This document shows positions 24,713 to 50,593 of a stretch of 64,000 nt of DNA, in pieces. How positions within the stretch are numbered: position 1 is the stretch's first letter; every line of letters begins with the position of its first letter. This stretch comes from Escherichia phage REP2, in sequence record OQ174501.1. One strand, given 5' to 3'. The position numbers and the translations under genes are program-made. The notes beneath the pieces are model-generated. The model was not told where the DNA came from. It searched no databases and saw only the letters and a list, made by a program, of their open reading frames with translations.

Positions 24713-26526
24713 CAATTGAAAAAGAAATTGAAGGATTGATTCATAAAACTAATAAAGACCTTTTAAACGAGAATGCTAATAAAGATTCTCGTGTTTTTCC
24801 AACTCAACGGGACCTTATGGCTGGTATTGTGTCTAAACACATTGCCAAAAATATGGTCCCGTCTTTTATTATGAAAGCGCATGAAAGCGGAATTATTCAT
24901 TTCCATGATATTGATTATTCCCCTGCTCTTCCATTTACTAATTGCTGTTTAGTAGATTTAAAAGGAATGCTTGAGAACGGATTTAAGCTTGGTAATGCAC
25001 AGATTGAAACTCCTAAATCAATTGGCGTTGCTACTGCAATTATGGCACAAATTACTGCGCAAGTTGCTTCCCATCAATATGGCGGAACGACTTTTGCTAA
25101 TGTAGATAAAGTACTTTCTCCTTATGTTAAACGCACCTATGCAAAACATATTGAGGATGCAGAAAAATGGCAAATCGCTGATGCGTTAAATTATGCTCAA
25201 TCTAAAACAGAAAAAGATGTATACGATGCATTCCAAGCTTATGAATATGAAGTAAATACTCTCTTTAGTTCAAACGGACAAACACCTTTTGTAACAATTA
25301 CATTTGGTACAGGAACTGACTGGACTGAACGAATGATTCAGAAAGCAATTCTGAAAAATCGTATTAAAGGTCTCGGTCGTGATGGGATAACTCCTATTTT
25401 CCCTAAGCTTGTTATGTTCGTTGAAGAAGGTGTTAATCTTTATAAAGACGATCCGAACTATGATATTAAACTGCTTGCTCTAGAGTGCGCAAGCAAAAGA
25501 ATGTATCCTGATATTATTTCAGCTAAGAACAATAAAGCTATCACTGGCTCATCTATTCCTGTTTCTCCAATGGGTTGTCGTAGTTTCTTGAGCGTATGGA
25601 AAGATTCGACTGGCAATGAAATTCTTGATGGACGTAATAATCTCGGTGTTGTAACACTGAATCTTCCTCGTATCGCATTAGATTCTTATATTGGAACACA
25701 GTTCAATGAACAGAAATTTATCGAATTGTTCAATGAACGAATGGATTTATGTTTTGAAGCTTTGATGTGTAGAATTAGTTCCTTAAAAGGAGTTAAAGCG
25801 ACTGTTGCTCCTATTCTTTACCAAGAAGGTGCATTCGGGGTTCGTCTTAAACCTGATGACGACATAATTGAGTTATTTAAAAACGGTAGAAGTTCAGTGT
25901 CTTTAGGATACATTGGTATTCATGAATTGAATATTCTTGTCGGTCGTGATATTGGACAAGAAATTTTAACTAAAATGAATGCTCGTCTTAAACAGTGGAC
26001 TGAAAGAACTGGGTTTGCTTTTAGTTTATATTCGACTCCTGCTGAAAACCTTTGTTATCGCTTCTGTAAACTCGATACAGAAAAATATGGAAGCGTAAAA
26101 GATGTTACTGATAAAGGCTGGTACACTAACAGTTTCCACGTTTCAGTAGAAGAAAATGTTACTCCGTTTGAAAAGATTTCTCGTGAAGCGCCATATCATT
26201 TCATTGCGACAGGTGGTCACATTTCTTATGTTGAACTTCCTGATATGAAAAATAACTTAAAAGGTCTTGAGGCTGTATGGGATTATGCCGCACAACATTT
26301 AGATTATTTTGGTGTTAATATGCCAGTAGATAAATGTTTTACATGTGGAAGTACCCATGAAATGACTCCTACTGAAAACGGATTTGTTTGTTCTATTTGT
26401 GGAGAAACTGATCCTAAAAAGATGAATACAATAAGAAGAACATGTGGTTATTTGGGAAATCCGAACGAGCGCGGATTTAATCTCGGTAAAAATAAAGAAA
26501 TCATGCATAGGGTTAAACACCAATGA
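24709..26526 (+). CDS. nrdD: Anaerobic ribonucleoside-triphosphate reductase
   Basis: 605 aa; C-terminal glycyl radical motif RRTCGYLG and Cys zinc motif; uninterrupted ORF with no intron. Confidence 0.93.
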   Translation: MTIEKEIEGLIHKTNKDLLNENANKDSRVFPTQRDLMAGIVSKHIAKNMVPSFIMKAHESGIIHFHDIDYSPALPFTNCCLVDLKGMLENGFKLGNAQIETPKSIGVATAIMAQITAQVASHQYGGTTFANVDKVLSPYVKRTYAKHIEDAEKWQIADALNYAQSKTEKDVYDAFQAYEYEVNTLFSSNGQTPFVTITFGTGTDWTERMIQKAILKNRIKGLGRDGITPIFPKLVMFVEEGVNLYKDDPNYDIKLLALECASKRMYPDIISAKNNKAITGSSIPVSPMGCRSFLSVWKDSTGNEILDGRNNLGVVTLNLPRIALDSYIGTQFNEQKFIELFNERMDLCFEALMCRISSLKGVKATVAPILYQEGAFGVRLKPDDDIIELFKNGRSSVSLGYIGIHELNILVGRDIGQEILTKMNARLKQWTERTGFAFSLYSTPAENLCYRFCKLDTEKYGSVKDVTDKGWYTNSFHVSVEENVTPFEKISREAPYHFIATGGHISYVELPDMKNNLKGLEAVWDYAAQHLDYFGVNMPVDKCFTCGSTHEMTPTENGFVCSICGETDPKKMNTIRRTCGYLGNPNERGFNLGKNKEIMHRVKHQ

Positions 26527-40578: not shown

Positions 40579-43275
40579 ATGAAAGAATTTTATATCTCTA
40601 TCGAAACAGTCGGAAATAACATTGTTGAACGTTATATTGATGAAAATGGAAAGGAACGTACTCGCGAAGTAGAATATCTTCCAACTATGTTTAGACATTG
40701 TAAGGAAGAGTCAAAGTACAAAGACATCTATGGTAAAAATTGCGCTCCTCAAAAATTTCCATCAATGAAAGATGCTCGAGATTGGATGAAGCGAATGGAA
40801 GACATCGGTCTCGAAGCTCTCGGTATGAACGATTTTAAACTCGCTTATATCAGTGATACGTATGGTTCAGAAATTGTTTATGACCGAAAATTTGTTCGTG
40901 TAGCTAACTGTGACATTGAGGTTACTGGTGATAAATTTCCTGACCCAATGAAAGCTGAATATGAAATTGATGCTATCACTCATTACGATTCAATTGATGA
41001 TCGTTTTTATGTTTTCGACCTTTTGAATTCAATGTACGGTTCAGTATCAAAATGGGATGCAAAGTTAGCTGCTAAGCTTGACTGTGAAGGTGGTGATGAA
41101 GTTCCTCAAGAAATTCTTGACCGAGTAATTTATATGCCATTTGATAATGAGCGTGATATGCTCATGGAATATATTAATCTCTGGGAACAGAAACGACCTG
41201 CTATTTTTACCGGTTGGAATATTGAGGGATTTGACGTTCCGTATATCATGAATCGTGTTAAAATGGTTCTCGGTGAACGTAGTATGAAACGCTTCTCTCC
41301 AATCGGTCGAGTAAAATCTAAACTAATTCAAAATATGTATGGTAGCAAAGAAATTTATTCTATTGATGGCGTATCTATTCTTGATTATTTAGATTTGTAC
41401 AAGAAATTCGCTTTTACTAATTTGCCGTCATTCTCTTTGGAATCAGTTGCTCAACATGAAACCAAAAAAGGTAAATTACCGTATGATGGTCCTATTAATA
41501 AACTTCGTGAGACTAATCATCAACGATACATTAGTTATAACATCATTGACGTAGAATCAGTTCAAGCAATTGATAAAATTCGCGGGTTTATCGATCTAGT
41601 TTTAAGTATGTCTTATTATGCTAAAATGCCTTTTTCCGGTGTAATGAGTCCTATTAAAACCTGGGATGCCATTATTTTTAACTCATTGAAAGGTGAACAT
41701 AAGGTTATTCCTCAACAAGGTTCGCATGTTAAACAGAGTTTTCCGGGTGCATTTGTGTTTGAACCTAAACCAATTGCTCGTCGATATATTATGAGTTTTG
41801 ACTTGACGTCTCTGTATCCGAGCATTATTCGTCAGGTTAACATTAGTCCTGAGACTATTCGTGGTCAGTTTAAAGTTCATCCAATTCATGAATATATCGC
41901 AGGAACAGCTCCTAAACCAAGTGATGAATATTCTTGTTCTCCGAATGGATGGATGTATGATAAGCATCAAGAAGGTATCATTCCAAAGGAAATCGCTAAA
42001 GTATTTTTCCAGCGTAAAGATTGGAAAAAGAAAATGTTCGCTGAAGAAATGAATGCCGAAGCTATTAAAAAGATTATTATGAAAGGCGCAGGGTCTTGTT
42101 CAACTAAACCTGAAGTTGAACGATATGTTAAGTTCAGTGATGATTTCTTAAATGAATTATCGAATTACACTGAATCTGTTCTTAATAGTCTGATCGAAGA
42201 ATGTGAAAAAGCAGCTACACTTGCTAACACAAATCAGCTGAACCGTAAAATTCTTATTAACAGTCTTTATGGTGCTCTTGGTAATATTCATTTCCGTTAC
42301 TATGATTTGCGAAATGCTACTGCTATCACAATTTTCGGCCAAGTTGGTATTCAGTGGATTGCTCGTAAAATTAATGAATATCTGAATAAAGTATGCGGAA
42401 CTAATGGCGAAGATTTCATTGCAGCAGGTGATACTGATTCGGTATATGTTTGTGTAGATAAAGTTATTGAAAAAGTTGGTCTTGACCGATTCAAAGAGCA
42501 GAACGATTTAGTTGAATTCATGAATCAGTTCGGTAAGAAAAAGATGGAACCTATGATTGATGTTGCATATCGTGAGTTATGTGATTATATGAATAACCGC
42601 GAGCATCTGATGCATATGGACCGTGAAGCTATTTCTTGCCCTCCACTTGGTTCAAAGGGCGTTGGTGGATTTTGGAAAGCGAAAAAGCGTTATGCTCTGA
42701 ACGTTTATGATATGGAAGATAAGCGTTTTGCTGAACCACATCTAAAAATCATGGGTATGGAAACTCAGCAGAGTTCAACGCCTAAAGCGGTCCAAGAAGC
42801 TCTCGAAGAAAGTATTCGTCGTATTCTTCAGGAAGGTGAAGAGTCTGTCCAAGAATATTACAAGAACTTCGAGAAAGAATATCGTCAACTTGACTATAAA
42901 GTTATTGCTGAAGTAAAAACTGCGAACGATATAGCGAAATATGATGATAAAGGTTGGCCAGGATTTAAATGTCCGTTCCATATTCGTGGTGTGCTAACTT
43001 ATCGTCGAGCTGTTAGCGGTTTAGGTGTAGCTCCAATTTTGGATGGAAATAAAGTAATGGTTCTTCCATTGCGTGAAGGAAATCCATTTGGTGACAAATG
43101 CATTGCTTGGCCGTCGGGTACAGAACTTCCAAAAGAAATTCGTTCTGACGTACTGTCTTGGATTGACTACTCAACTTTGTTCCAAAAATCGTTTGTTAAA
43201 CCGCTTGCGGGTATGTGTGAATCGGCTGGCATGGACTATGAAGAAAAAGCTTCGTTAGACTTCCTGTTTGGCTGA
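40579..43275 (+). CDS. 43: DNA polymerase gp43 (family B)
   Basis: 898 aa; exonuclease and polymerase motifs (YGDTDS, KILINSLYGALG). Confidence 0.97.
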   Translation: MKEFYISIETVGNNIVERYIDENGKERTREVEYLPTMFRHCKEESKYKDIYGKNCAPQKFPSMKDARDWMKRMEDIGLEALGMNDFKLAYISDTYGSEIVYDRKFVRVANCDIEVTGDKFPDPMKAEYEIDAITHYDSIDDRFYVFDLLNSMYGSVSKWDAKLAAKLDCEGGDEVPQEILDRVIYMPFDNERDMLMEYINLWEQKRPAIFTGWNIEGFDVPYIMNRVKMVLGERSMKRFSPIGRVKSKLIQNMYGSKEIYSIDGVSILDYLDLYKKFAFTNLPSFSLESVAQHETKKGKLPYDGPINKLRETNHQRYISYNIIDVESVQAIDKIRGFIDLVLSMSYYAKMPFSGVMSPIKTWDAIIFNSLKGEHKVIPQQGSHVKQSFPGAFVFEPKPIARRYIMSFDLTSLYPSIIRQVNISPETIRGQFKVHPIHEYIAGTAPKPSDEYSCSPNGWMYDKHQEGIIPKEIAKVFFQRKDWKKKMFAEEMNAEAIKKIIMKGAGSCSTKPEVERYVKFSDDFLNELSNYTESVLNSLIEECEKAATLANTNQLNRKILINSLYGALGNIHFRYYDLRNATAITIFGQVGIQWIARKINEYLNKVCGTNGEDFIAAGDTDSVYVCVDKVIEKVGLDRFKEQNDLVEFMNQFGKKKMEPMIDVAYRELCDYMNNREHLMHMDREAISCPPLGSKGVGGFWKAKKRYALNVYDMEDKRFAEPHLKIMGMETQQSSTPKAVQEALEESIRRILQEGEESVQEYYKNFEKEYRQLDYKVIAEVKTANDIAKYDDKGWPGFKCPFHIRGVLTYRRAVSGLGVAPILDGNKVMVLPLREGNPFGDKCIAWPSGTELPKEIRSDVLSWIDYSTLFQKSFVKPLAGMCESAGMDYEEKASLDFLFG

Positions 43276-43288
43276 TAGAATAAATCTA

Positions 43289-43309
43289 GGGACCTCCGGG
43301 TCCCTTTTT
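43289..43309 (+). terminator. Rho-independent terminator
   Basis: gggacc-tccg-ggtccc + T5. Confidence 0.75.
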
Positions 43310-43379
43310 CATACAAGTAATATAAATCTATACTTATGAAAAACAGATGATTCTGGACCTTTAGAATTCCCTAAAAAAT

Positions 43380-43427
43380 TTTCACAAAACTGTTTACAAG
43401 ACTGTTCTTCCATGGTACTATACAACT
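43380..43427 (+). promoter_or_regulatory. T4 early promoter
   Basis: GTTTAC 43392-43397, TACTAT 43416-43421; shared leader ...ggagaataaaATG. Confidence 0.6.
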
Positions 43428-43455
43428 ATCAACTAATACGGATTTGGAGAATAAA

Positions 43456-43692
43456 ATGAAAATTATTATGGGATGCTTAGCAGTTTGTTTAGTTGCATTA
43501 GCAGCAGTTCCATTTGTTAGTGTTGAAAATGATACTCAACCTGTGATTGAATCTAGCACCGTTATTCACACTAATGGTAAAATATCAGTTAAAATTGATG
43601 ATAATCTTCATGTGAATACAAATGGATCTTTAGGTGTGCAAATGGGTAATACCTGCATAAGCACTACTGGAGTAATTACTACTTGCATTTGA
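43456..43692 (+). CDS. Secreted small protein
   Basis: Signal peptide MKIIMGCLAVCLVALAAVPFVSV; ORF track starts at 43444. Confidence 0.5.
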   Translation: MKIIMGCLAVCLVALAAVPFVSVENDTQPVIESSTVIHTNGKISVKIDDNLHVNTNGSLGVQMGNTCISTTGVITTCI

Positions 43693-43702
43693 GGAAATTA
43701 TT

Positions 43703-44083
43703 ATGAAAATCGCTATTTTGGTTATTGCATTAGGTCTTACTGGTTGTGTAGCTCAAGGACCGGTAGTAAATCAGTCTGATGTAGGAAAAATTGTAAATTG
43801 TTCAAGCAAATTTTATAATCCTAATGTCAAGTGTTATAAAGAAGCTCCAAAACAGACAGTAGAACAAATGCAGGCGAATTTTGACGAAGCTATTCGTCCA
43901 GATGAATCTGCTCAAGCATATCGTAATTCTGATGTAATTACACGCGAAGAAAAAATTGAAAACTACTGCGCCGAAATTTGGGCTAATTGGGCTAATAATT
44001 ACCAATGGCGTACCGGTAAAAATGCTCCGATGGAGTATGTAGTGAATTCTTATAATTCATGTGTAAAAAATTTGACTAAGTGA
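43703..44083 (+). CDS. Lipoprotein
   Basis: Lipobox LTGC after MKIAILVIALG; 126 aa. Confidence 0.6.
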   Translation: MKIAILVIALGLTGCVAQGPVVNQSDVGKIVNCSSKFYNPNVKCYKEAPKQTVEQMQANFDEAIRPDESAQAYRNSDVITREEKIENYCAEIWANWANNYQWRTGKNAPMEYVVNSYNSCVKNLTK

Positions 44084-44090
44084 GGAAAAC

Positions 44091-44342
44091 ATGGAAACTT
44101 TAGTAGCAGGTTCAATTTTTATGGTTTTAGTTTCAGGTGTGTTGGCTATTATTATATACATGCTTCCATGGTTTATCGCCTTGATGCGTGGGTCAAAATC
44201 GACAGTAGGAATCTTTTTCACATCTTTACTGTTTAACTGGTCAATTATTGGTTGGTTTATTACATTTATTTGGTCAATTGCGGGTGAAACTAAAAAGTCT
44301 GCACAACCAAATCAGGTAATTATCATCAGAGAGAAGGAATGA
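44091..44342 (+). CDS. imm: Immunity (superinfection exclusion) membrane protein Imm
   Basis: 83 aa, two TM helices; between 43 and 42. Confidence 0.85.
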   Translation: METLVAGSIFMVLVSGVLAIIIYMLPWFIALMRGSKSTVGIFFTSLLFNWSIIGWFITFIWSIAGETKKSAQPNQVIIIREKE

Positions 44343-44488
44343 AAAGCAAAATTATAGCAGTGTTGCTTTTAATCTTGATGATTATAATAAGTATATACTA
44401 TAGTGTAACGGTTCCTCTTATGATTCCAACTATTATTTTAGGCTGGGGTTTATTACTGTTACAAGTTAAATATGAATGTATCAATTGA
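44339..44488 (+). CDS. Small membrane protein (49 aa)
   Basis: ATGA overlap with imm; strongly hydrophobic. Confidence 0.4.
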   Translation: MKSKIIAVLLLILMIIISIYYSVTVPLMIPTIILGWGLLLLQVKYECIN

Positions 44489-44495
44489 GGTTTAA

Positions 44496-45236
44496 ATGAT
44501 TAGTGACTCTATGACAGTTGAAGAAATCCGTCTTCATTTGGGGCTTGCATTAAAAGAAAAAGATTTCGTAGTTGATAAAACTGGCGTTAAAACTATTGAA
44601 ATTATTGGCGCATCATTTATAGCAGATGAACCGTTTATTTTTGGCGCTCTTAATGATGAATACATTCAGCGTGAACTTGAATGGTATAAATCTAAGAGCT
44701 TGTTCGTTAAAGATATTCCGGGTGAAACACCGAAGATTTGGCAACAAGTAGCATCTTCTAAAGGTGAAATTAACTCGAATTATGGCTGGGCTATCTGGTC
44801 AGAAGATAACTATGCCCAGTATGATATGTGTTTAGCTGAACTTGGTCAAAATCCTGATTCTCGACGTGGTATCATGATTTATACTCGTCCATCCATGCAA
44901 TTTGACTACAATAAAGATGGTATGTCAGATTTCATGTGTACTAATACAGTACAGTACCTGATTCGTGATAAGAAAGTCAATGCGGTTGTTAGCATGAGAA
45001 GCAATGATTGCTGGGCAGGCTATCGTAATGATTATGCTTGGCAAAAATACGTACTAGATAAATTAGTATCTGATTTGAATGCAGGCGACCCATCGCGGCA
45101 ATATAAAGCAGGTTCTATTATATGGAACGTTGGAAGTCTTCATGTGTACGAAAATCAGTTTTATTTAGTTGACCATTGGTGGAACACCGGTGAGACTCAT
45201 ATTGCTAAAAAGGATTATACTGGAAAATGGAAGTAA
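44496..45236 (+). CDS. 42: dCMP hydroxymethylase gp42
   Basis: 246 aa; thymidylate-synthase-like fold; conserved position. Confidence 0.88.
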   Translation: MISDSMTVEEIRLHLGLALKEKDFVVDKTGVKTIEIIGASFIADEPFIFGALNDEYIQRELEWYKSKSLFVKDIPGETPKIWQQVASSKGEINSNYGWAIWSEDNYAQYDMCLAELGQNPDSRRGIMIYTRPSMQFDYNKDGMSDFMCTNTVQYLIRDKKVNAVVSMRSNDCWAGYRNDYAWQKYVLDKLVSDLNAGDPSRQYKAGSIIWNVGSLHVYENQFYLVDHWWNTGETHIAKKDYTGKWK

Positions 45237-45867
45237 ATGTGCCACATGTTTATAAGTATAAACATCCTAAAACTAAAAAGTGGTATATAGGAAGTCATGA
45301 TGGTCACAACCCGAATTATGATGGTTCGGGTGTAGTTTGGCAACATGCTAAAAAGAAATATGGAATAAAATCCTTTAATAAAGAAATATTATATGAAGGA
45401 CCAATGTTTAGACAGGTTGAAGAAATTATTTTAACTTGTTTAGATGCTGCTAATTGTCCGGATTCATATAATTTAAAGAATGAAGCATGGGGAGGAAGTT
45501 TTCCAGGCAAATTAAATGGAATGTACGGTAAAAACTATCTCCAGAAGAAAGATATAAGTGCGGAAATGCCTTTCGTGGAATCAAGCGTCCTGATCATTCT
45601 AAAAGAATGAAAGGCGAAGGTAATCCAATGTATGGTAAAAATGAGCAGGCATATGGAATTATAAATCGAGCCAAGGAAAATTCTGGTAAAACTTATGAAG
45701 AAATTTTTGGCGTAGAAAAAGCTAAAATAATTAAAGAAACGATGTCTAAAAATCGTAAAGGAAAACCTCATAATTTGATAGAAAAAATATGTCCGCATTG
45801 CGGACTAAAAGGACGTGGGCCAAATATGACAAGATACCATTTTGACAAATGTAAGGCACTTAAATGA
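45227..45867 (+). pseudogene. GIY-YIG (Seg-like) homing endonuclease gene split by a frameshift
   Basis: ORF 45227-45610 carries VYKYKHPKTKKWYIGSHDG (GIY-YIG) and NUMOD-like GKLNGMYGKN; the second frame, open from 45559 to 45867, carries GNAFRGIKRPDHSKRMKGEGNPMYGK repeats and the zinc finger CPHCGLKGRGPNMTRYHFDKC. Confidence 0.6.
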
Positions 45868-50299: not shown

Positions 50300-50593
50300 A
50301 TGAAAAAATTTATTTTTGCTACAATTTTTGCTTTAGCTTCTTGTGCTGCTCAGCCTGCTATGGCAGGTTATGATAAAGATTTGTGTGAATGGTCTATGAC
50401 TGCGGATCAGACTGAAGTTGAAACTCAAATTGAAGCAGATATTATGAATATCGTTGAGCGCGATCGCCCTGAAATGAAAGCTGAAGTGCAAAAACAGCTT
50501 AAGTCTGGCGGTATCATGCAGTACAATTATGTTTTGTATTGCGATAAAAACTTCAATAATAAAAATATCGTAACCGAAATCACAGGTGAATAA
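50300..50593 (+). CDS. sp: Spackle (periplasmic lysozyme inhibitor / superinfection exclusion)
   Basis: 97 aa with signal peptide MKKFIFATIFALASCAAQPAMA. Confidence 0.8.
   Translation: MKKFIFATIFALASCAAQPAMAGYDKDLCEWSMTADQTEVETQIEADIMNIVERDRPEMKAEVQKQLKSGGIMQYNYVLYCDKNFNNKNIVTEITGE

What the first reader, a model, noticed from the sequence alone, without database searches (positions are those of the whole stretch)
43456..44488. Envelope-targeted cluster around imm
A secreted 78-aa protein, a lipoprotein (lipobox LTGC), Imm and a 49-aa hydrophobic peptide form one unit under an early promoter between 43 and 42. Imm is a known superinfection-exclusion factor; the flanking envelope proteins are plausible additional exclusion or injection-control factors.
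Basis: partly seen in the sequence, partly recalled or inferred. Interest (0 to 1): 0.35.

Follow-up and report, generated by a model that had tools for sequence, protein, structure and literature searches.

The report
T-even early envelope cassette around imm
This is the known T4-type early gene cluster that holds the superinfection-exclusion gene imm; the new lead is that imm almost always sits next to an outer-membrane lipoprotein gene across T4-like phages, which makes that lipoprotein a testable candidate for a further exclusion factor.

Summary
The window is a Tequatrovirus, 100% identical here to Shigella phage Sf21. Between DNA polymerase gene 43 and dCMP hydroxymethylase gene 42 lie a terminator, an early-type promoter and four tightly packed ORFs:
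- ORF-A, 78 aa, with a signal-peptide-like N-terminus.
- Imm.1, a 126-aa lipoprotein (lipobox LTGC; Pfam DUF5481).
- Imm, 83 aa (PF14373; one residue different from T4 Imm).
- ORF-D, a 49-aa hydrophobic peptide.

All four are conserved coding genes.

- Imm is a proven exclusion factor that binds the tape measure protein.
- The lipoprotein is linked to imm by context only. It lay within 150 bp of imm in all 24 T4-like metagenomic loci. Its record count matches imm almost 1:1 in 657 Tequatrovirus and Mosigvirus genomes. It lies with imm beside spackle in Mosigvirus. In T4 it is an early RNA and early protein.
- Imm works alone from a plasmid, and phage CHI14 keeps the lipoprotein without imm, so the lipoprotein is not an obligate partner.
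- ORF-A is a Tequatrovirus-only accessory gene that T4 lacks.
- ORF-D is not tied to imm.

No exclusion function for the flanking genes was shown. Modest interest.

The parts
43288..43305 (+). Intrinsic terminator after gene 43 (GGGACC-TCCG-GGTCCC, then TTTTT)
   Evidence: 7-bp stem with 5 G-C pairs and a T-run. Conserved in T4.
43393..43421 (+). Early-type promoter: GTTTACA, 17-nt spacer, extended -10 TGgTACTAT
   Evidence: 9 of 12 matches with TG before the -10 hexamer. The sequence is identical in T4. T4 imm.1 is classed as early RNA and early protein in PMC9697503, supplementary files 4 and 6. That GTTTAC is the T4 early -35 consensus is from my own knowledge.
43456..43692 (+). ORF-A: 78-aa small protein with a signal-peptide-like N-terminus, a conserved C-terminus LGVQxGNTCxSTTGVITTCI and two C-terminal Cys. 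Function unknown.
   Evidence: phrog_4189 at E 6e-30, no Pfam hit. Found in 325 phage records, all Tequatrovirus-like. The family is restricted to Tequatrovirus. dN/dS 0.37. Absent from T4 and RB32.
43703..44083 (+). imm.1: 126-aa lipoprotein precursor with lipobox LTGC and Val at +2. After the lipidated Cys comes the conserved tether motif VAQGPVVNQSDVGK, then a helical C-terminal domain with conserved Cys89 and Cys120.
   Evidence: Pfam DUF5481 at 237.6 bits, phrog_1754. About 98% identical to T4 Imm.1. AF2 model: residues 1-38 disordered, helices 53-64, 68-75, 81-104 and 110-125, with the last 45 residues at pLDDT about 90. dN/dS 0.04-0.13. Early RNA and protein in T4.
44091..44342 (+). imm: 83-aa inner-membrane superinfection immunity protein
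   Evidence: PF14373 at 58.2 bits, phrog_1039 'immunity to superinfection'. One residue different from T4 Imm. R33 and W50, the residues whose mutation weakens exclusion, are invariant (bioRxiv 10.64898/2026.03.06.709160).
44339..44488 (+). ORF-D: 49-aa peptide with two hydrophobic segments and the conserved motif PxMIPT...GW...QxKYECIN. Its start overlaps the imm stop (ATGA). It is named 42.1 in RB32 and is not annotated in T4 RefSeq.
   Evidence: phrog_3610 at E 6e-26. 761 phage records match. Homologues occur in Mosig-, Gapriver-, Dhaka-, Winkler-, Kagamiyama- and Kanagawavirus. Intact in T4.

Best explanation
This is the conserved early 'post-gene-43' envelope cassette of T-even phages. 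The transcript of gene 43 ends at a terminator. A sigma-70 early promoter then drives four small envelope proteins within the first minutes of infection and probably reads on into gene 42.

Imm (shown elsewhere): it inserts in the inner membrane and binds the tape measure protein gp29 of a superinfecting T-even phage, so that no DNA channel opens.

Imm.1 (inferred): it is cleaved and lipidated at Cys15 and sorted to the inner leaflet of the outer membrane, because residue +2 is not Asp. It presents a disulfide-stabilised helical domain in the periplasm on a flexible tether. I propose it is a second, periplasmic layer of the same defence against incoming T-even tails, acting beside Imm (inner membrane) and Spackle (periplasm). 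The most likely mode is binding a conserved part of the tail tip or tape measure protein as it crosses the periplasm, much as the lipoprotein Ltp does in Streptococcus phage TP-J34.

ORF-D is a small inner-membrane hairpin peptide. ORF-A is a fast-evolving secreted or membrane-anchored accessory protein. Both are envelope-targeted, but nothing ties them to exclusion.
For: Shown here:
- Gene calls, families and purifying selection.
- Terminator and promoter, both identical in T4.
- Imm is 82/83 identical to T4 Imm, with R33 and W50 kept.

Shown by others:
- Imm binds the gp29 helical bundle domain, and Imm alone lowers T4 plating (bioRxiv 10.64898/2026.03.06.709160).
- T4 imm.1 is an early RNA and an early detected protein, the same class as sp (PMC9697503 supplement).

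Context evidence for the lipoprotein:
- A lipobox ORF lies next to imm in Tequatro-, Mosig-, Gapriver-, Dhaka-, Gelderland-, Karam- and Muldoonvirus and in the Klebsiella T4-likes, upstream in some and downstream in others.
- 24 of 24 T4-like IMG/VR loci have such an ORF, against 3 of 55 loci from small non-T4 phages.
- Only 2 lipobox ORFs with a ribosome-binding site exist in the whole 64-kb window, and they are imm.1 and sp.
- All three divergent DUF5481 cluster representatives outside Tequatro- and Mosigvirus are followed by imm.
- In Mosigvirus the order is lipoprotein-imm-sp, between genes 41 and 61.
- A tether motif directly after the lipid Cys is shared by lipoproteins that otherwise cannot be aligned. 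hhalign gives E 6e-5 over these columns. A regex for the motif hits 33 of 8450 ORFs, all of them imm-adjacent lipoproteins.
- Imm.1 is at least 95% identical across Tequatrovirus, including T2 and T4. From my own knowledge, T-even phages use different receptors. Together these point to a conserved target rather than a receptor.
Against: - No experiment shows any exclusion phenotype for Imm.1, ORF-A or ORF-D. Reviews list only Imm and Sp for T4 (PMC11436027).
- Imm works alone from a plasmid.
- Winklervirus CHI14 keeps the lipoprotein and sp but has no Imm HMM hit in all 171 kb. Kagamiyama- and Kanagawavirus have the same local layout without an adjacent imm.
- The adjacency is largely inherited synteny, so the lineages are not independent samples.
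- The lipoproteins fall into at least two sequence families that profile searches and Foldseek do not join.
- The Imm.1 model has no structural neighbour in PDB or BFVD outside its own family, so no mechanism can be read from the fold.
- Localisation and lipidation are rule-based predictions.
Confidence: 0.4

Rival explanations
1. The flanking genes are unrelated envelope 'morons'. They share a promoter and a permissive slot downstream of gene 43 with imm. Imm.1 has its own function unconnected with superinfection, for example modulating envelope stress, outer-membrane integrity, vesiculation, or host defences that sense envelope damage. It stays near imm only because of inherited synteny.
For: - The lipoprotein persists without imm in CHI14, and with no adjacent imm in EcS1 and PEi20.
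- Imm is sufficient for exclusion on its own.
- The post-43 slot is variable: ORF-A comes and goes, and in other genera it holds an arabinose-5-phosphate isomerase.
- ORF-D stays in the slot whichever gene precedes it.
Against: - In Mosigvirus the lipoprotein lies with imm at a new site that is exactly next to sp, not in the post-43 slot.
- Co-occurrence is nearly 1:1 across 657 genomes.
- Every divergent DUF5481 member found in 1.84 billion representative proteins is next to imm.
Confidence: 0.35
2. Imm.1 is a helper of Imm rather than an independent effector. It docks on the periplasmic N-terminus of Imm, or recruits Imm to sites where outer and inner membrane are bridged, forming a trans-envelope complex that raises the efficiency of the block.
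For: - The genes are tightly adjacent, often 8-60 bp apart and overlapping in PS2.
- The pair lies together at the new site in Mosigvirus.
- A conserved tether motif could be a docking peptide.
- The N-terminus of Imm faces the periplasm, as cited in the preprint.
- The SP18-type lipoprotein is modelled with a 68-residue helix, long enough to span much of the periplasm.
Against: - Imm alone excludes and co-purifies with the tape measure fragment without Imm.1.
- The lipoprotein is kept where imm is absent.
- No co-folding or interaction test could be run here.
Confidence: 0.15
3. Imm.1 blocks a phage receptor in the outer membrane, like T5 Llp (FhuA) or Cor, and so prevents adsorption of further phage.
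For: It is a predicted outer-membrane lipoprotein made early, the same class of protein as Llp (my own knowledge; the abstract of PMC9586334 is listed).
Against: - Imm.1 is at least 95% identical across Tequatrovirus, including T2 and T4. From my own knowledge, T-even phages use different outer-membrane receptors.
- No Pfam or PHROG link to Llp or Cor families.
- T4-infected cells still adsorb superinfecting phage, which is the classical basis of lysis inhibition (my own knowledge).
Confidence: 0.05

Closest known systems
T4 Imm (Pfam PF14373, Imm_superinfect)
   Same: The window's gene at 44091-44342 is this protein. It is 82/83 identical, has the same position and the same early unit, and keeps R33 and W50.
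   Different: Nothing material. The 94-aa N-terminally extended form used for cryo-EM in the 2026 preprint cannot be made here, because an in-frame TGA lies at 44073-44075. This supports the 83-aa form.
T4 Imm.1 (Pfam DUF5481; UniProt P18057)
   Same: The window's lipoprotein is about 98% identical to it.
   Different: T4 has lipobox LAGC and 125 aa. Here it is LTGC and 126 aa. In T4 the gene follows the promoter directly, because ORF-A is deleted. The function of the family is unknown.
Ltp of Streptococcus thermophilus phage TP-J34 (superinfection-exclusion lipoprotein that targets the tape measure protein)
   Same: A phage-encoded, membrane-anchored, largely helical lipoprotein facing the compartment the tail tip must cross. 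Ltp blocks DNA injection by binding the tape measure protein (PMC3952083). The tape measure protein is also what the neighbouring gene product Imm binds in T4.
   Different: No sequence or fold similarity was detected. Ltp is from a temperate Gram-positive phage and is anchored to the cytoplasmic membrane. An exclusion function for Imm.1 is untested.
T4 Spackle (Sp, gene 61.3)
   Same: An early, periplasmic superinfection-exclusion factor. In this window it lies at 50300-50590. In Mosigvirus it directly follows the lipoprotein-imm pair. It falls in the same early RNA and early protein class as imm.1.
   Different: It is a soluble inhibitor of the gp5 lysozyme and is unrelated in sequence to Imm.1.
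HK97 gp15 and the T5 Llp / Cor lipoproteins
   Same: These are other phage exclusion proteins of the envelope. gp15 is an inner-membrane protein acting through the tape measure protein (cited). Llp and Cor are outer-membrane lipoproteins.
   Different: Llp and Cor block receptors. Imm.1 does not vary with receptor type, and no homology was found.

Membership tests
Imm_superinfect / T4 Imm | Pfam PF14373 match above the gathering score | tested here: met
   58.2 bits against a cut-off of 27.9, residues 22-63.
Imm_superinfect / T4 Imm | Orthology to T4 imm: sequence identity and position between genes 43 and 42 | tested here: met
   82/83 identical, same flanks.
Imm_superinfect / T4 Imm | Residues R33 and W50, which are needed for full exclusion | tested here: met
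   Both are invariant in a 9-sequence alignment that includes the window. Their role is taken from the preprint.
Imm_superinfect / T4 Imm | Exclusion of superinfecting T-even phage; binding of gp29 | not testable with these tools
   Requires experiment. Shown for T4 Imm only.
DUF5481 / T4 Imm.1 | Pfam PF17578 match above the gathering score | tested here: met
   237.6 bits against a cut-off of 27, full length of the model.
Bacterial lipoprotein (signal peptidase II substrate) | Basic n-region, uncharged h-region, lipobox [LVI][ASTVI][GAS]C within the first 15-25 residues | tested here: met
   MKIAILVIALGLTGC matches the G+LPP-type pattern. Only one other ORF with a ribosome-binding site in 64 kb matches it.
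Bacterial lipoprotein (signal peptidase II substrate) | Actual lipidation, globomycin sensitivity and outer-membrane localisation | not testable with these tools
   Outer-membrane sorting is inferred from Val at +2 (no Asp), using the Lol +2 rule from my own knowledge.
Ltp-type superinfection-exclusion lipoproteins | Sequence or fold similarity to Ltp | tested here: not met
   Pfam returned only DUF5481 and four chance-level hits for Imm.1 at E up to 1. That Pfam holds an Ltp family is from my own knowledge. No PDB structural match at E below 1.
Ltp-type superinfection-exclusion lipoproteins | Blocks DNA injection by binding the tape measure protein | not testable with these tools
   Functional analogy only.
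Receptor-blocking lipoproteins (T5 Llp, Cor) | Homology to Llp or Cor | tested here: not met
   No family match.
Receptor-blocking lipoproteins (T5 Llp, Cor) | Co-variation with receptor specificity | tested here: not met
   At least 95% identity across Tequatrovirus records, including T2 and T4. That these phages use different receptors is from my own knowledge.
Two-component spanin (inner-membrane protein plus outer-membrane lipoprotein gene pair) | Late expression with the lysis genes | tested here: not met
   imm.1 is early RNA and early protein in T4.
One lipoprotein family shared by all imm-adjacent lipoproteins | Full-length homology detectable by profile or fold | tested here: not met
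   hhalign gives 65% probability over 27 N-terminal columns only. Iterative HMM searches do not cross between the groups. Foldseek does not link them. Only the tether motif and a Cys pair are shared.

The most novel reading that the evidence does not exclude
T4-like phages carry a three-layer superinfection-exclusion system. An outer-membrane-anchored lipoprotein (Imm.1 and its positional equivalents) intercepts the incoming tail tip or tape measure protein in the periplasm. Spackle disarms the tail lysozyme. Imm blocks the inner-membrane channel. The lipoprotein-imm pair behaves as a module that lies beside sp in RB69-like phages. The lipoprotein has diverged, or been replaced, beyond recognition except for a conserved docking peptide next to its lipid anchor.
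Probability: 0.3. Interest if true: 0.6.

Novelty: new member of a known kind. Interest (0 to 1): 0.4.

Why it matters
Superinfection exclusion by T4 is a classical problem, and the Imm mechanism (binding of the tape measure protein) has only just been described. Reviews still list only two T4 factors, Imm and Sp. A third envelope protein is made at the same time and kept next to imm across most Tevenvirinae genera. If it takes part in exclusion, it would do three things:
- complete the picture of how an infected cell closes each envelope layer;
- explain residual exclusion in imm and sp mutants;
- give a new handle on the periplasmic step of myovirus genome delivery.

The test is cheap: one deletion and one expression plasmid in T4. 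If the test is negative, the cluster is simply a set of co-transcribed envelope proteins of unknown role, which is ordinary for T4-like phages.

Tried and rejected
1. Colicin lysis proteins. From memory, the tether motif resembled them (QGGTVSPSS...). No Pfam match to any lysis family appeared in 16 lipoproteins at E up to 1, so I dropped the idea.
2. Joining all imm-adjacent lipoproteins into one family. hhalign aligns only 27 N-terminal columns. Iterative HMM searches from either side do not cross over. Foldseek of both AF2 models finds only close relatives.
3. Reading a function from the Imm.1 fold. No PDB hit has E below 1.
4. Defence and naming libraries. PADLOC and NCBIfam gave nothing meaningful.
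5. The RefSeq label 'iduronate sulfatase' for T4 imm.1. No sulfatase family matches, so I treat it as an annotation error.
6. ORF-D as an Imm partner. This was my first guess from the ATGA overlap. I rejected it because ORF-D is coupled in the same way to arabinose-5-phosphate isomerase where imm lies elsewhere or is absent.
7. Wider homologues of Imm.1. phmmer against 1.84 billion representatives gave only 6 clusters.
8. Papers. Lu and Henning 1989 and Miller 2003 could not be read. Full-text searches for imm.1 and DUF5481 found no functional study.
9. Lipoproteins next to Imm homologues in small non-T4 phages. These are sporadic (3 of 55) and unrelated.
Full report
**What the window is.** The 1220 bases from 43276 to 44495 are 100% identical to Shigella phage Sf21, Escherichia phage REP3 and vB-Eco-KMB40. 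They match 515 phage records, nearly all Tequatrovirus. Alignment with T4 (NC_000866) and the annotation of the identical phage put the region between DNA polymerase gene 43 (40579-43275) and dCMP hydroxymethylase gene 42 (44496-45236), all on the + strand.

**Anatomy.**
- Gene 43 is followed by a strong hairpin plus T-run at 43288-43305.
- A promoter-like site lies at 43393-43421: GTTTACA, a 17-nt spacer and an extended -10, TGgTACTAT. It is base-for-base identical in T4.
- Four ORFs follow with 7-10 nt gaps or an overlap, each with a Shine-Dalgarno sequence:
  - ORF-A, 43456-43692, 78 aa;
  - the lipoprotein, 43703-44083, 126 aa, N-terminus MKIAILVIALGLTGC;
  - imm, 44091-44342, 83 aa;
  - ORF-D, 44339-44488, 49 aa, whose start overlaps the imm stop as ATGA.
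- Gene 42 starts 8 nt later, and no terminator-like site was found after ORF-D. The four genes share a promoter, but the transcript probably continues into gene 42.

**Are the ORFs real?** Yes.
- PHROG matches are E 6e-30, 3e-44, 4e-32 and 6e-26.
- Pfam gives DUF5481 for the lipoprotein (237.6 bits) and Imm_superinfect for Imm (58.2 bits).
- Against diverged Tequatroviruses, dN/dS is 0.04-0.13 for imm.1, 0-0.09 for imm, 0.37 for ORF-A and 0.26-0.5 for ORF-D.
- In T4, imm.1 is classed as early RNA and early protein, the same class as sp (PMC9697503, supplementary files 4 and 6). So the protein is made, and made early.

**Relation to T4.**
- T4 lacks ORF-A. The two sequences align perfectly up to the ORF-A start. 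They resume at the imm.1 start, and both junctions read ATGAAAAT. This is most simply a microhomology deletion that places the ORF-A leader in front of imm.1.
- ORF-A is found in 325 of the 515 records, and only in Tequatrovirus.
- ORF-D is intact in T4 at complement 26227-26376, but it is not annotated in the RefSeq record. RB32 names it 42.1.

**What is known about Imm.** A 2026 preprint (bioRxiv 10.64898/2026.03.06.709160) reports three things:
- Imm co-purifies with a fragment of the tape measure protein gp29 and binds its helical bundle domain.
- The R33A and W50A mutations weaken exclusion.
- Plasmid-borne Imm alone reduces T4 plating.

The Imm in this window differs from T4 Imm at one residue and keeps R33 and W50, which are invariant in nine homologues. 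Neither the preprint nor recent reviews mention the neighbouring genes. No paper in the library mentions imm.1 or DUF5481 in its main text.

**Comparative genomics of the lipoprotein.** This is the main result. Gene orders found:

| Lineage | Gene order |
|---|---|
| Tequatrovirus | 43, [ORF-A], lipoprotein, imm, ORF-D, 42 |
| Gelderlandvirus S16, Karamvirus CkP1, Klebsiella T4-likes | 43, lipoprotein, imm, 42 |
| Muldoonvirus PS2 | 43, three small ORFs, lipoprotein, imm, two ORFs, 42 |
| Gaprivervirus SP18, Dhakavirus | 43, imm, [ORF-D], lipoprotein |
| Mosigvirus MM02 | lipoprotein (DUF5481, 33% identical), imm (63% identical), then a 97-aa ORF, all between helicase gene 41 and primase gene 61 |

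- In Mosigvirus the 97-aa ORF is 70% identical to the window's Spackle at 50300-50590. That window ORF matches PDB 6x6o, 'Protein spackle'. In RB69-like phages the lipoprotein therefore sits in one row with both known exclusion genes.
- In IMG/VR, all 24 loci from T4-like contigs have a same-strand lipobox ORF within 150 bp of imm. Only 3 of 55 loci from small, unrelated phages do, and those lipoproteins are unrelated.
- The background is low. The whole 64-kb window has only two lipobox ORFs with a ribosome-binding site, imm.1 and sp.
- tblastn record counts for imm.1 (501 close plus 155 Mosigvirus-type) nearly equal those for Imm (501 plus 156).
- phmmer against 1.84 billion representative proteins finds only six DUF5481 clusters. 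The three divergent metagenomic ones each sit directly upstream of an Imm_superinfect gene. One of them is a non-lipidated version with an ordinary signal peptide.

**Limits of that evidence.**
- The adjacency is mostly inherited, so the lineages are not independent trials.
- Winklervirus CHI14 has 43, lipoprotein, arabinose-5-phosphate isomerase, ORF-D. It has no Imm HMM hit anywhere in its 171,175 bp, though it keeps sp. Kagamiyamavirus EcS1 and Kanagawavirus PEi20 have the same local layout. The lipoprotein can therefore be kept without imm.
- The lipoproteins are not demonstrably one family. Iterative HMM searches from mature Imm.1 recruit only DUF5481 members. Searches from the SP18 type recruit the Dhaka, Gapriver, Winkler, Kagamiyama and Gelderland types and loci L033-L035, but not DUF5481, the Klebsiella type or the PS2 type. 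hhalign aligns only 27 N-terminal columns (65% probability, E 6e-5). Foldseek does not join the two models.
- What the lipoproteins share is the lipobox, a non-Asp residue at +2, two conserved Cys on the last helices and a near-invariant Arg. They also share a motif directly after the lipidated Cys: T4-type C-VAQGPVVNQSDVGK, Karamvirus C-ATTYGPVVNEHEVGQ, SP18 C-AYQGDVVNANEIGK, Klebsiella type C-QMPQGDIVPASSVGQ. A regex for this motif hits 33 of 8450 six-frame ORFs in all fetched loci, and every hit is an imm-adjacent lipoprotein. The regex was written after seeing the sequences, so its specificity is partly circular.

**Structure.**
- AF2 on a 16-sequence alignment gives Imm.1 a disordered N-terminal 38 residues and four helices. 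The last two (81-104 and 110-125, pLDDT about 90) carry Cys89 and Cys120. Mean pLDDT is 67.5.
- The SP18-type protein is modelled with a short hairpin and a 68-residue helix followed by two more helices. Mean pLDDT is 72.5.
- Neither model has an informative neighbour in BFVD or PDB.

**ORF-D.** It has two hydrophobic segments and the conserved motif PxMIPT...GW...QxK[YF]xC[FI]N. It is always coupled by an overlapping start to the gene before it. That gene is imm in Tequatro-, Gapriver- and Dhakavirus and in one metagenomic contig. It is arabinose-5-phosphate isomerase in Mosig-, Winkler-, Kagamiyama- and Kanagawavirus. ORF-D belongs to the slot, not to imm.

**ORF-A.**
- The N-terminus MKIIMGCLAVCLVALAAVPF has a plausible ALA|A cleavage site.
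- Variants carry 21-nt repeat expansions inside this hydrophobic core. Some of them create a canonical LAAC lipobox, and UniRef names one cluster 'Lipoprotein'.
- The mature part has an invariant C-terminus with two Cys.
- It evolves faster than its neighbours: pS 0.30 and pN 0.11, against 0.09 and 0.007 for imm.1 in the same phage pair.
- T4 lacks it, so it cannot be required for the classical exclusion phenotype.

**Mechanism and confidence.**
- Shown: this is an early cassette of envelope proteins, and Imm blocks the tape measure protein at the inner membrane.
- Inferred, at about 0.4 confidence: Imm.1 is an outer-membrane-anchored periplasmic protein that adds a further layer to the defence against incoming T-even tails. 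The closest functional parallel is Ltp of phage TP-J34, a helical lipoprotein that blocks injection by binding the tape measure protein (PMC3952083). Membership of that family was tested and not met.
- The main rival, at about 0.35, is that the flanking genes are unrelated envelope proteins kept together by synteny.
- Weaker rivals are that Imm.1 is a helper of Imm (0.15) or that it blocks a receptor (0.05).

**Verdict.** What seems unreported is the near-universal pairing of imm with a lipoprotein and their position beside sp in Mosigvirus.

Noticed in passing
L002 2228-2377 (-), which is NC_000866 complement 26227-26376: T4 RefSeq leaves the 49-aa ORF between imm and gene 42 unannotated. It is intact, overlaps the imm stop by ATGA, and is conserved in several genera. 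RB32 calls it 42.1.
   Followed up: yes
window 43440-43710 against L002 (T4): ORF-A is a presence/absence polymorphism. T4 and RB32 lack exactly the stretch between two ATGAAAAT repeats, which are the ORF-A start and the imm.1 start. In T4, imm.1 therefore uses the ORF-A leader and ribosome-binding site. 325 of 515 records carry ORF-A.
   Followed up: yes
window 43456-43520; proteins P0024, P0030, P0031: The hydrophobic core of ORF-A carries 21-nt (7-aa, CLVALAA-like) repeat expansions in some phages. One variant gains a canonical LAAC lipobox and is named 'Lipoprotein' in UniRef.
   Followed up: partly
L003 3495-4530 (Mosigvirus MM02); window 50300-50590: In RB69-like phages the imm.1 homologue, imm and spackle are three consecutive genes between helicase gene 41 and primase gene 61. 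In this window sp lies 6 kb downstream of imm. The Sp signal peptide also contains a lipobox-like LASC.
   Followed up: yes
L011 1977-2171 (Klebsiella siphophage 37P2): An Imm homologue sits on the opposite strand inside the tail module, between the tape measure and chaperone genes and the tail tube gene. This is a suggestive placement, given that T4 Imm binds the tape measure protein.
   Followed up: no
window 44073-44093: An in-frame TGA at 44073-44075 closes the imm reading frame upstream of the ATG at 44091. The 94-aa extended Imm form used for cryo-EM of T4 Imm cannot exist in this phage. A 1-nt indel at the end of imm.1 makes the difference from T4.
   Followed up: partly
window 45227-45867: Two overlapping ORFs (127 and 86 aa) between gene 42 and the glucosyltransferase gene match PHROG homing-endonuclease families (E 4e-20 and 5e-4). 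They look like a split seg-type endonuclease. The otherwise identical phage KMB40 has no insert here.
   Followed up: partly
L002 2637-3014 (T4 imm.1, NP_049661): RefSeq names T4 imm.1 'iduronate sulfatase', and the label has spread to other phage records. No sulfatase family matches the protein. Several records also label imm.1 as 'immunity' without evidence.
   Followed up: yes
L100, L101, L105, L004: In phages that carry an arabinose-5-phosphate isomerase, that gene occupies the position imm holds elsewhere, with ORF-D coupled to its 3' end. CHI14 has no recognisable imm in its whole genome. From my own knowledge, these phages have an arabinosylated-DNA lifestyle.
   Followed up: partly
L014 1209-2046 (Shigella phage CT01): The record shows a rearrangement: a 5' fragment of imm.1, then an internal fragment of ORF-A, then a repeat of the leader and a full imm.1. 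This may be a recombination product or an assembly error.
   Followed up: no
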